Under the pieces are notes generated by a model, which saw only the letters and a program-made list of their open reading frames with translations, did no database searches and was not told the DNA's origin. DNA of 64,000 nt, taken from the human T2T-CHM13v2.0 reference genome, Homo sapiens. Location: NCBI RefSeq assembly GCF_009914755.1, contig NC_060936.1; one strand, 5' to 3'. Below, in pieces: positions 56,456 through 57,984 of the stretch. Position numbers and translations under genes: made by a program. Every line of letters begins with the position of its first letter. Within the stretch, counting starts at the first letter, position 1.

Positions 56456-56671
56456 CTTTTCTTTATTATCCAAAGAGGAGGAAAGTCTGGGACTTGAAGC
56501 TGAACGTGTAACACCTGCAGTATCTTTTTCTTTCTGACCCTCTTTAGATGCTGTGATTTCAGCAAGTGCACCATAGCTGCCCGTCTTTCTAAGTCCTAAC
56601 CTCCAAGTTGCAGGAGACTCATCTTTTCTCTCTTCTTCTTTGGGAGAAATTTTTGTAGCTGTGGTTGGAAA
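56456..56671 (-). CDS. PPP1R12A: MYPT1 exon 10 (216 nt, F414-K485); contains S445 and S472/S473
   Basis: Translates FPTTATKISPKEEERKDESPATWRLGLRKTGSYGALAEITASKEGQKEKDTAGVTRSASSPRLSSSLDNKEK, matching human MYPT1; CAG acceptor, AAG|GTAAT donor, phase 0/0. Confidence 0.97.
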
Positions 56672-57055
56672 CTGTGTTTATTTTATTTTTTAGGAAAAGA
56701 AAAAAGAATTTGTAAAGCTGATCAGTCCTTAAATTGGAAACAATAAGTTTACAGATAATATATTTAAAATTATGGTTTACAGTTTCAGGATAAAACACTT
56801 TTACTACATAGGTTAATGTCTTAGTAAAAAATGTAAAGATCTAAAAATTTTAAAGAAATAGACTACCTTCCTAGGGGTTAGACTTAAGAAAACACACTAC
56901 ACACTTTATATCACACAGAAAAATTATGATGCAAATACAGAAAACAGAAATGAGCACACCATAAGGACTTAAAACCATGCATCTTTGGAACCAATTTATA
57001 TTAAACTTGTTATGTTGTAACCTAATATAAATTCTTGCACATAGAAATGCCTCAC

Positions 57056-57172
57056 CATAGATTTTTCACCCTTACTGGGCACAAGAACAATGCCAGTTTT
57101 GCGCAAGCCCTGCCTCCATGATGCAGGATCTACTGATTCCACCACAGGCATGATAGGAGCAATGAAATCATA
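57056..57172 (-). CDS. PPP1R12A: Candidate in-frame cassette exon (117 nt, 39 aa) upstream of exon 10
   Basis: CTTTAG|YDFIAPIMPVVESVDPASWRQGLRKTGIVLVPSKGEKSM|GTGAG; phase 0/0; motif paralogous to exon 10. Confidence 0.72.
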
Positions 57173-57984
57173 CTAAAGCCAATTAAAATAAGACAGGTAA
57201 AGAGACAAAGATTGAAAGCATGAAAACAGAAAAGGGAAGTTATGAACAAAAAATATTTTCTTCATTTGAAAATAATTTTATAATTAACCCCAATAATTGG
57301 GTAATGATCCAATCTTTAAAAGTCACTGGGAACAAGTTCTAATTTTAGCATGAGATAATCTGAAAAAAATCTAATAAACTTCTAAAGCAATTAAAAGGCA
57401 TACAGAGTAGATAATATAGCATGTGACTGAACAAACTACTGCACATGAATTTTGTTTTTAATCCATGTATATACTCTGGTTAAAAAATTTTGTGTCCAAT
57501 ATAATCAACAAAAACTAGTAACTGATATTTTTCCAATTATAATACTTTTTTTTTTAACATCACAGCCTTAAATTTACTGATTTCCCCACCAAACATTAAC
57601 TATTTCAACTATAATAAAAACTAATTTTATGTACAAATATTTATGCTATTTTAAGGGCTTTCCAACAACCCTAAAAATGCAACCTCTGTTATCTTTAGAT
57701 CACTTCATCAACTTCACTTCTAGAAATTCTATACTCAACCACAGTTAACTATATAGATTGGTGAATACAGCAACTAACTAGTTGCCACAAGCATAGGGTA
57801 TTAATAATTTTTTAAAAATCATTTCTTTCATATCTATTGCCAACATTTGCTATAATTAGCAGGTTAACAGGGCTTGTTAAAGCCCCCATGATGATGCTTG
57901 AGGGCCACTTCATGGACAAAACTGTTATAAAGATATACCTCTGGTACTTCCAGTAATGAATTGCTATCAATAGTGTCTAAGCAT

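What the first reader, a model, noticed from the sequence alone, without database searches (positions are those of the whole stretch)
57056..57172. 117-nt in-frame cassette exon duplicating the WRxGLRKTG motif without its phospho-serine
Seen: about 385 nt upstream of exon 10 lies TTTAG|...|GTGAG, enclosing 39 stop-free codons (YDFIAPIMPVVESVDPASWRQGLRKTGIVLVPSKGEKSM). It is phase 0/0, compatible with the flanking junction, and GC-richer than the surrounding intron. Its core DPASWRQGLRKTGI matches SPATWRLGLRKTGS in exon 10. Known: S445 in LRKTGS is a NUAK1 site implicated in 14-3-3 binding. Inference: a tandem exon duplication supplies a second, non-phosphorylatable copy of the motif (Ser to Ile), either added to exon 10 or replacing it, since both are phase 0/0. 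The LRKT core also resembles the WH2 LKKT actin-binding motif, which is speculative.
Basis: partly seen in the sequence, partly recalled or inferred. Interest (0 to 1): 0.85.

Follow-up and report, generated by a model that had tools for sequence, protein, structure and literature searches.

The report
Ancient duplicated MYPT1 cassette exon
A rarely used, already annotated extra exon of the myosin-phosphatase gene PPP1R12A is a very old copy of part of the next exon, and it repeats a kinase-target motif with an isoleucine where the phosphorylated serine should be.

Summary
Window 57056-57172 (minus strand) is a 117-nt, stop-free, phase 0/0 exon with an AG acceptor and a GTGAGG donor, 384 nt upstream of PPP1R12A exon 10. 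Its core DPASWRQGLRKTGI matches exon 10's SPATWRLGLRKTGS at 10 of 14 residues.

The exon is not new. NCBI predicted human isoforms carry it (XP_011536676.1, 1069 aa = 1030 + 39). It is very probably the "E9+" exon of Saldanha et al. 2022 (Ensembl PPP1R12A-223), which has 315 and 443 junction reads against 9974 for skipping.

In 215 of 216 retrieved predicted proteins it sits in front of exon 10. It never replaces exon 10, so the "mutually exclusive" reading is not supported.

It is present in mammals, birds, turtle, lizards and ray-finned fishes, including sturgeon, gar and bowfin. Human and sturgeon share 30 of 39 residues. W-R-x-G-L-R-K-T-G-I, including the Ile, is invariant in 34 species.

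I found no printed mention of the internal duplication or the serine-less motif. Function is untested. My best guess is a non-phosphorylatable decoy or docking copy of the NUAK/LATS site motif. The WH2 idea has no support.

The exon itself is known; the duplication reading is a modest new insight.

The parts
57056..57172 (-). Cassette exon ('E9+'), 117 nt, 39 codons, phase 0/0, inserted between exon 9 and exon 10 of PPP1R12A
   Evidence: sequence, translation; present in human XP_011536676.1 and many vertebrate models; published junction reads
57173..57202 (-). 3' splice site: pyrimidine-rich tract (72% C/T in the 25 nt before the AG) ending in ttag; branch-point-like TTAAT, CTTAT and TTTAC with the A at -11, -17 and -26
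57050..57055 (-). 5' splice site ATG|GTGAGG
57089..57130 (-). Motif core DPASWRQGLRKTGI; the Ile codon ATT at 57089-57091 takes the place of the phospho-acceptor Ser
   Evidence: coordinates checked; W432 R433 G435 L436 R437 K438 T439 G440 I441 invariant in 34 species
56672..57055 (-). 384-nt intron between the cassette and exon 10
56456..56671 (-). Constitutive exon 10, the parent or sister copy. Motif core SPATWRLGLRKTGS at 56576-56617; Ser445 codon AGC at 56576-56578
   Evidence: annotation table supplied with the finding; Ser445 as a NUAK1 and LATS1 site
56976..56981 (-). Single TGCATG (RBFOX-type hexamer) at +75..+80 of the downstream intron. It is a lead for tissue-regulated inclusion, not evidence
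   Evidence: the count in the whole window is at chance level (36 found against 32.9 expected)

Best explanation
The feature is a genuine, evolutionarily old, low-inclusion alternative coding exon of PPP1R12A (MYPT1). It arose by tandem duplication of the 5' part of exon 10.

When included, it is spliced between exon 9 and exon 10 and does not replace exon 10. It inserts 39 residues into the disordered central region. The isoform then carries two copies of the W-R-x-G-L-R-K-T-G motif 42 residues apart. The upstream copy ends in an invariant Ile. The downstream copy ends in Ser445 (Ser484 in the long isoform), which NUAK1 and LATS1 phosphorylate.

Shown:
- the exon's anatomy;
- its presence in predicted proteins from mammals to sturgeon;
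- residue conservation as high as in neighbouring constitutive exons;
- additive arrangement in all full models;
- published spliced reads.

Inferred (about 0.3 on its own): the serine-less copy keeps the whole motif for more than about 400 My, a date recalled from general knowledge. So the motif probably does more than mark a phospho-site. The cassette probably supplies either a non-phosphorylatable copy that acts as a constitutive docking site for whatever reads the unphosphorylated motif, or a cis pseudosubstrate/decoy for basophilic kinases (NUAK, LATS). Either way it would blunt kinase and 14-3-3 control of the MYPT1-PP1 complex in the cells that include it.
For: Anatomy.

Duplication:
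- BLASTP E = 4e-7.
- The core is 10/14 identical. Of the 10 identical residues, 5 use the same codon and 5 use a different synonymous codon, which indicates an old split with the protein sequence kept.
- Genome-wide the motif occurs only in 12A exon 10, this exon and 12B exon 10, plus one chance hit.

Coding use and age:
- The 120 best of 398 hits are PPP1R12A models with 87-100% identity, including eight human XP isoforms.
- Lizards, turtle and birds appear.
- All 82 hits are ray-finned fish PPP1R12A, including Acipenser, Polyodon, Lepisosteus and Amia.

Arrangement: both copies are present in 134/134 and 81/82 models.

Conservation in 34 species (my selection of one isoform per species from 216 stored proteins):
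- 13 of 39 columns of the cassette are invariant, against 14 of 60 for the end of exon 9 and 37 of 72 for exon 10.
- Human against sturgeon: 30/39 (cassette), 32/60 (end of exon 9), 58/72 (exon 10).

Transcripts: Saldanha et al. 2022 (PMC9367544; section 3.2, figure legends, passages of 3.3 and the Discussion, and supplementary spreadsheet 1 read). They report junction reads E9-E9+ 315, E9+-E10 443 and E9-E10 9974. The authors estimate about 5% inclusion; my arithmetic gives 3.7%.

Motif as a kinase site.

Local structure: the AF2 model puts residues 294-715 below pLDDT 50. It draws short helices exactly on both motif copies (429-438 and 473-481), with small pLDDT bumps of 40 and 42 against 27-34 nearby. 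This is low confidence.
Against: - No EST or mRNA covers the exon. RT-PCR was negative in HUVEC and saphenous-vein smooth muscle cells, RNA-seq gave <1% in platelets, and GTEx does not score the junctions. So in the human cell types tested it is nearly unused, and no tissue with high inclusion is known to me.
- The paper says the E9+ isoform is '32 amino acids longer', not 39. No canonical 96-nt AG..GT version overlaps this exon, and I could not read the paper's PDF supplement. The identity of E9+ with 57056-57172 is therefore very likely but not proven.
- All orthologous proteins were retrieved by similarity to the cassette. They cannot show how many species lack it or how often it is included.
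- They are computer-predicted models.
- No nucleotide alignments of other vertebrates were available, so no dN/dS or PhyloCSF test was run.
- The functional mechanism has no direct evidence.
Confidence: 0.8

Rival explanations
1. The cassette and exon 10 are mutually exclusive alternatives, so the cassette isoform loses Ser445 altogether.
For: Both exons are phase 0/0 and multiples of 3 (117 and 216 nt), so replacement would stay in frame. From recall, tandemly duplicated exons are often mutually exclusive.
Against: 0 of 215 full models lack the exon 10 copy. The one exception (P0225) runs on past the cassette and ends. The published counts list an E9+-E10 junction with 443 reads. The two exons differ greatly in length and are alike only in their 5' parts.
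Confidence: 0.04
2. The exon is splicing noise: a pseudo-exon with no protein function that gene predictors copy from species to species.
For: Inclusion is low (about 4-5% in one aggregated data set), RT-PCR was negative in two cell types and there is no EST or mRNA. Open AG..GT windows of this size occur about twice per 7 kb of this intron. Ab initio artefacts that read through its donor exist in databases.
Against: The frame is open and 22-30 of 39 residues are identical between human and ray-finned fishes. Thirteen columns are invariant. This is higher conservation than in the constitutive end of exon 9. Neutral intron sequence would not stay alignable at that distance (established knowledge).
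Confidence: 0.06
3. The conserved element acts mainly through its hydrophobic flanks (YDFIAPIMPVV and IVLVP), as a new binding or membrane-contact segment. The motif copy is then only a relic of the duplication.
For: The cassette is the most hydrophobic stretch between residues 300 and 700: the 9-residue Kyte-Doolittle maximum is 2.3 at FIAPIMPVV, and the mean is 0.01 against about -1.1 for its neighbours. L443 and P445 are invariant and P422 is nearly so.
Against: The most strictly conserved block is the motif itself, W432-I441. The N-terminal hydrophobic part varies more in fishes (alignment block). A relic would not stay invariant.
Confidence: 0.1
4. The LRKT core makes the cassette a WH2-like actin-monomer-binding motif.
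For: Only the resemblance of LRKT to the LKKT of WH2 domains (recalled), plus a low-confidence predicted helix just before and over it.
Against: Neither the cassette, exon 10 nor the full isoform outside the ankyrin and C-terminal domains gave a Pfam WH2 hit (or any hit) at E <= 10. In the model the helix covers the LRK residues instead of preceding them by a linker. HMMER filters may drop very weak matches, so the test is not strong.
Confidence: 0.03

Closest known systems
PPP1R12A exon 'E9+' (Saldanha et al. 2022, Cells 11:2315; Ensembl PPP1R12A-223) and NCBI Gnomon isoforms such as human XP_011536676.1
   Same: It lies in intron 9, is in frame and protein-coding, and is said to be conserved in some vertebrates and supported by RNA-seq junctions. 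The Gnomon proteins contain exactly the 39 residues translated from 57056-57172.
   Different: The paper gives 32 added residues, not 39, and does not mention a duplication, Ser445, NUAK in its text or 14-3-3. A search of the paper found 0 hits for 'duplicat', 'Ser445', 'S445' and '14-3-3', and NUAK only in the reference list. Its PDF supplement with the exon sequence could not be read.
Alternative exons born by tandem exon duplication (Kondrashov and Koonin 2001; Letunic et al. 2002; recalled, not read here)
   Same: The two exons are adjacent, on the same strand and in the same phase, with significant protein similarity and diverged synonymous sites.
   Different: That class is typically spliced in a mutually exclusive way. 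Here the duplicate is an optional addition in front of its constitutive sister. Only the 5' half is alike.
Pseudosubstrate segments of basophilic kinases (PKI, PKC pseudosubstrates; recalled)
   Same: The cassette has a full substrate-like context with a non-phosphorylatable residue at position 0: Leu at -5, Arg at -4 and Lys at -3, as in LRKTGS445.
   Different: No kinase binding or inhibition has been shown. The +4 residue is Pro, not the hydrophobic residue of the recalled AMPK-family consensus. The segment sits in the substrate protein, not in a kinase or a dedicated inhibitor.
The other MYPT1 alternative exons (E13/E14 central insert, E22, E24 leucine-zipper switch)
   Same: They are cassette-type alternative splicing in the same gene, and the in-frame ones (E13, E14, E22) change the protein.
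   Different: None of these was reported as an internal duplicate of a neighbouring exon. They are far more abundant (13-15% for skipping of E13 or E14) and have known tissue patterns.

Membership tests
In-frame alternative cassette exon | Canonical AG acceptor with a pyrimidine tract, and a GT donor | tested here: met
   ttag|...|gtgagg; 72% pyrimidines in the 25 nt before the AG
In-frame alternative cassette exon | Length a multiple of 3, no stop, frame continuous with both neighbours | tested here: met
   117 nt, 39 codons; human XP_011536676.1 reads through E9|cassette|E10
In-frame alternative cassette exon | Spliced reads for both inclusion junctions and for skipping | tested here: met
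   Taken from print only: 315, 443 and 9974 reads in supplementary spreadsheet 1 of PMC9367544. This assumes that E9+ is this exon. No read data could be examined here.
In-frame alternative cassette exon | Coding-type conservation in other species | tested here: met
   Tested at protein level only: 13 of 39 columns invariant in 34 species from human to teleosts. Codon-level tests were not possible.
Tandem exon duplication | Adjacent exons on the same strand and in the same phase with significant sequence similarity | tested here: met
   384 nt apart; both phase 0/0; BLASTP E = 4e-7; the motif is genome-unique apart from the PPP1R12B paralogue
Tandem exon duplication | Mutually exclusive use of the two copies (typical of the class, not obligatory) | tested here: not met
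   Both copies are present in 215 of 216 models
NUAK/AMPK-related (and LATS1) kinase substrate site | Hydrophobic residue at -5 and basic residue at -4/-3 (consensus recalled) | tested here: met
   L436, R437 and K438 relative to position 441, identical to the LRKTGS445 context
NUAK/AMPK-related (and LATS1) kinase substrate site | Ser or Thr phospho-acceptor at position 0 | tested here: not met
   Ile441 is invariant in 34 species. The cassette copy therefore cannot be a member, only a look-alike.
Phospho-dependent 14-3-3 binding site | Phosphorylatable Ser/Thr in an RxxS-type context | tested here: not met
   There is no Ser at the homologous position. Thr439 remains but was not tested.
WH2 domain (Pfam PF02205; accession recalled) | Match to the family profile | tested here: not met
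   0 Pfam families for the cassette or the exon 10 peptide at E <= 10

The most novel reading that the evidence does not exclude
The cassette may be a built-in, splice-controlled pseudosubstrate or decoy. This would uncouple MYPT1-PP1beta from LKB1-NUAK and 14-3-3 control. It would be an isoform-level switch kept since the common ancestor of bony vertebrates. As far as my searches reach, it has not been described.
Probability: 0.15. Interest if true: 0.6.

Novelty: already known. Interest (0 to 1): 0.35.

Why it matters
MYPT1 targets PP1 to myosin and to mitotic and adhesion substrates. Ser445 is the read-out site used for NUAK1 activity.

An isoform with a second, unphosphorylatable copy of that motif, kept from fish to human, implies that the motif has a reader beyond the kinases. 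It also implies that some cell type uses splicing to alter this control point.

Practically, the finding shows three things:
- An exon missing from the curated RefSeq transcripts in the table supplied with the finding is under long-term protein-level constraint.
- Antibodies or peptides built on the RLGLRKTGS epitope might meet a near-copy in this isoform.
- The duplication predates the split of ray-finned fishes and tetrapods.

The exon itself is already annotated and named, so the gain is interpretive.

Tried and rejected
- Earlier findings of this scan were not open.
- A whole-genome protein search with the 39-aa peptide found only the exon itself, so it was too insensitive to see exon 10.
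- PPP1R12B: its exon 10 was found at chr1. The 9.7 kb upstream holds no cassette-like copy; the best non-self tblastn hits have E above 1. A PPP1R12B cassette is therefore not seen in human, but a more distant or larger-intron copy is not excluded.
- PPP1R12C was not recovered or 58 and was not examined.
- The representative-library search gave only 8 hits at E <= 0.001. Three are repeat proteins unrelated to MYPT1 (P0139, P0142, P0143) and three are read-through ORF artefacts.
- No solved structure covers either exon.
- The Pfam WH2 test was negative.
- Literature searches found nothing on a duplication or pseudosubstrate: the motif string, 'PPP1R12A' with 'exon duplication', 'MYPT1' with 'pseudosubstrate' and 'NUAK', and 'MYPT1' with '39 amino acid'.
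- PPP1R12A mentions in the Shiba preprint (E14), the myocardin paper (E24) and the RBFOX2 paper (MPRIP only) concern other exons.
- Dippold and Fisher 2014 (PMC4121627) is not held, so I could not check whether it mentions the exon.
- A 96-nt version that would explain the paper's '32 amino acids' does not exist at this exon. Two unrelated open 96-nt AG..GT windows lie elsewhere in the intron and have no support.
- The AF2 model of the full isoform is low confidence through the whole central region and gives no contact information.

Full report
**1. Observation**

On the minus strand, window 57172..57056 reads ttag|TATGAT...TCTATG|gtgagg. It translates to 39 codons without a stop, YDFIAPIMPVVESVDPASWRQGLRKTGIVLVPSKGEKSM. 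Exon 10 of PPP1R12A (56456-56671) lies 384 nt downstream.

The 25 nt before the acceptor AG are 72% pyrimidine. The exon has 46% G+C, against 27% and 28% in the flanking 300 nt.

An open AG..GT window by itself means little. The 7.3 kb of intron 9 inside the window holds two open 117-nt windows and two open 96-nt windows.

What is not chance is the similarity to exon 10:
- BLASTP gives 12/24 identities, E = 4e-7.
- The core DPASWRQGLRKTGI against SPATWRLGLRKTGS is 10/14 identical.
- A back-translated W-R-x-G-L-R-K-T-G pattern hits the whole 3.1-Gb assembly only four times: exon 10, this exon, exon 10 of the paralogue PPP1R12B on chr1, and one degenerate hit on chr3 that encodes WSQGFRKT. The reversed control pattern gave no hits.

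Of the ten identical residues, five use the same codon and five a different synonymous codon. That is what an old duplication with the protein sequence held constant would give.

**2. The exon is used in gene models and is already in print**

A search of the 5.8-billion-protein collection used the 40-aa translation of 57053-57172, because the 39-aa peptide was under the tool's minimum. It gave 398 proteins at E <= 10. All 120 best hits listed are PPP1R12A models or unnamed equivalents with 87-100% identity. They include eight human Gnomon isoforms.

Human XP_011536676.1 is 1069 aa, the canonical 1030 plus 39. It reads ...TSPIKK|YDF...KSM|FPTTATK....

Saldanha et al. 2022 (PMC9367544) describe an exon 'E9+' in intron 9. 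I read section 3.2, the figure legends, passages of section 3.3 and the Discussion, and supplementary spreadsheet 1. The exon is taken from Ensembl transcript PPP1R12A-223, is protein-coding and preserves the frame. The authors report:
- No EST or mRNA support, but 'clear support by RNAseq'.
- 315 reads for E9-E9+, 443 for E9+-E10 and 9974 for E9-E10 in NCBI's aggregated RNA-seq. They estimate about 5% inclusion; my arithmetic from these numbers gives 3.7%.
- RT-PCR did not detect the exon in HUVEC or saphenous-vein smooth muscle cells. RNA-seq gave <1% in platelets.
- GTEx does not score the junctions.

One discrepancy remains. The paper says the isoform is 32 residues longer, not 39. No canonical 96-nt version overlaps this exon. 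Met421 to Met452 of the cassette is 32 residues, and database ORF artefacts start at that Met. The PDF supplement that holds the exon sequence could not be read. I therefore take E9+ to be this exon, with high but not complete certainty.

The annotation table supplied with the finding lists no transcript with this exon.

**3. Added, not substituted**

All 134 tetrapod proteins of 100 aa or more stored after carry the exon 10 motif downstream of the cassette motif. That is 130 by a first pattern and the four Anolis models on inspection.

Of the 82 fish proteins, 81 carry both copies, 35-57 residues apart. One (P0225) ends shortly after the cassette. The published junction table joins E9+ to E10.

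**4. Age and constraint**

One search, with a gecko copy as query, listed lizards (Gekko, Heteronotia, Anolis, Phrynosoma), a turtle (Pelodiscus) and birds (Pezoporus, Accipiter).

The search of 1.84 billion representatives gave 8 hits. One was a diverged copy in a fish, Umbra. With that copy as query, all 82 hits were PPP1R12A of ray-finned fishes: many teleosts, eels, gar, bowfin, sturgeons and paddlefish. Sturgeon reads SDFITPLMPVAELCDPASWRQGLRKTGISLVPNKGEKAMF.

I aligned one isoform from each of 34 species, chosen by me from the 216 stored proteins: 4 mammals, 5 sauropsids and 25 ray-finned fishes. Invariant residues in the cassette (numbering of the 1069-aa human isoform) are P429, W432, R433, G435, L436, R437, K438, T439, G440, I441, L443, P445 and K450.

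| Segment | Invariant columns | Human vs sturgeon identity |
|---|---|---|
| Last 60 residues of exon 9 | 14 of 60 | 32/60 |
| Cassette | 13 of 39 | 30/39 |
| Exon 10 | 37 of 72 | 58/72 |

The cassette is thus about as constrained as its constitutive neighbours. The Ile that replaces the phospho-acceptor never varies.

Caveats:
- Every sequence was found by likeness to the cassette, so the data say nothing about species that lack it or about inclusion levels.
- The proteins are predicted models.
- Amphibians, coelacanth, sharks and lamprey did not appear in the lists I could see, so their status is open.
- No vertebrate nucleotide alignments were available for codon-level tests.

**5. Paralogues**

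Human PPP1R12B exon 10 carries WRLGLRKTGSH. No cassette-like copy lies in the 9.7 kb upstream of it, and none appears in the genome-wide pattern search. PPP1R12C was not recovered. All named hits are PPP1R12A.

**6. What it may do**

Ser445 in LRKTGS is phosphorylated by NUAK1 and NUAK2, together with Ser472 and Ser910. This promotes 14-3-3 binding and restrains the phosphatase (passages of PMC3969223). LATS1 also phosphorylates Ser445 (tables of PMC3849777).

The cassette copy keeps Leu at -5, Arg at -4, Lys at -3, Thr at -2 and Gly at -1, and also Trp at -9 and Gly at -6, but has Ile at position 0. Since this copy cannot be phosphorylated there and yet keeps the whole motif, the motif probably has a reader beyond the kinases.

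The AF2 model of the long isoform (34-sequence alignment; mean pLDDT 48.8) leaves residues 294-715 below pLDDT 50. It draws short helices exactly on both copies, 429-438 and 473-481. Ten-residue pLDDT blocks there are 40 and 42, against 27-34 around them. This is consistent with two like short linear motifs in a disordered region, but at low confidence.

The cassette is also the most hydrophobic stretch between residues 300 and 700. No solved structure covers either exon, and no Pfam family, WH2 included, matches them.

My best functional guess, marked as inference, is that the cassette is a non-phosphorylatable docking copy or a cis pseudosubstrate/decoy that blunts NUAK, LATS and 14-3-3 control.

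**7. Comparison and novelty**

The exon is annotated in Ensembl and Gnomon and was named in 2022, so the feature is already known.

In the literature I could search, I did not find the recognition that it is an internal duplicate of exon 10 carrying a serine-less copy of the Ser445 motif:
- In the 2022 paper: 0 hits for 'duplicat', 'Ser445', 'S445' and '14-3-3'.
- In the library: 0 papers for the motif string, 0 for 'PPP1R12A' with 'exon duplication', 0 for 'MYPT1' with 'pseudosubstrate' and 'NUAK', and nothing relevant for 'MYPT1' with '39 amino acid'.
- Dippold and Fisher 2014 could not be read.

Compared with the classic tandem-duplication exons (recalled literature), this one is additive rather than mutually exclusive.

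**8. Verdict**

Its deep conservation and motif logic are a modest, testable addition. Interest 0.35.

Noticed in passing
window 56976-56981 (-): A single TGCATG (RBFOX-type site) lies 75-80 nt downstream of the cassette's donor, followed by a GT-rich run at +97 to +160. The hexamer count in the whole window is at chance level (36 found against 32.9 expected), so this is only a lead for muscle- or brain-enriched inclusion.
   Followed up: partly
window 57070-57078 (-), exon position 98: There is an internal donor-like site CCA|GTAAGG inside the cassette. Using it would give a 97-nt, frame-shifting version. Species with Asn instead of Ser446 lack the GT.
   Followed up: partly
P0138, P0140, P0141; window 56996-57172 (-): Public protein sets hold short ab initio ORFs that start at the cassette's internal Met and read through the donor into the intron. 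The human frame stays open for 58 codons. These are artefacts. Met421 to Met452 is 32 residues, the same number as the '32 amino acids' printed for E9+.
   Followed up: partly
L008 (G000:C1:201690100-201700096); L003: PPP1R12B exon 10 carries WRLGLRKTGSH, but no cassette-like duplicate lies within 9.7 kb upstream. The duplicate looks specific to PPP1R12A, at least in human.
   Followed up: partly
L005 (G000:C3:87214963-87214988, -): This is the only other genome-wide hit of the degenerate motif pattern. It encodes WSQGFRKT, which matches through the degeneracy of the pattern and is taken as chance.
   Followed up: no
Fish PPP1R12A models P0144-P0225: In ray-finned fishes the residue after the invariant Ile is Ser (TGISLVP) instead of Val. 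Teleosts also replace the C-terminal NKGEKxM with a shorter KKPM. Some fish isoforms differ just upstream as well...SPTNQ| is joined directly to the cassette, without the TSPxKK segment.
   Followed up: no
Human isoform P0099, residues 414-452: The cassette is the most hydrophobic segment of the disordered region from residue 300 to 700 (FIAPIMPVV, 9-residue Kyte-Doolittle mean 2.3).
   Followed up: partly
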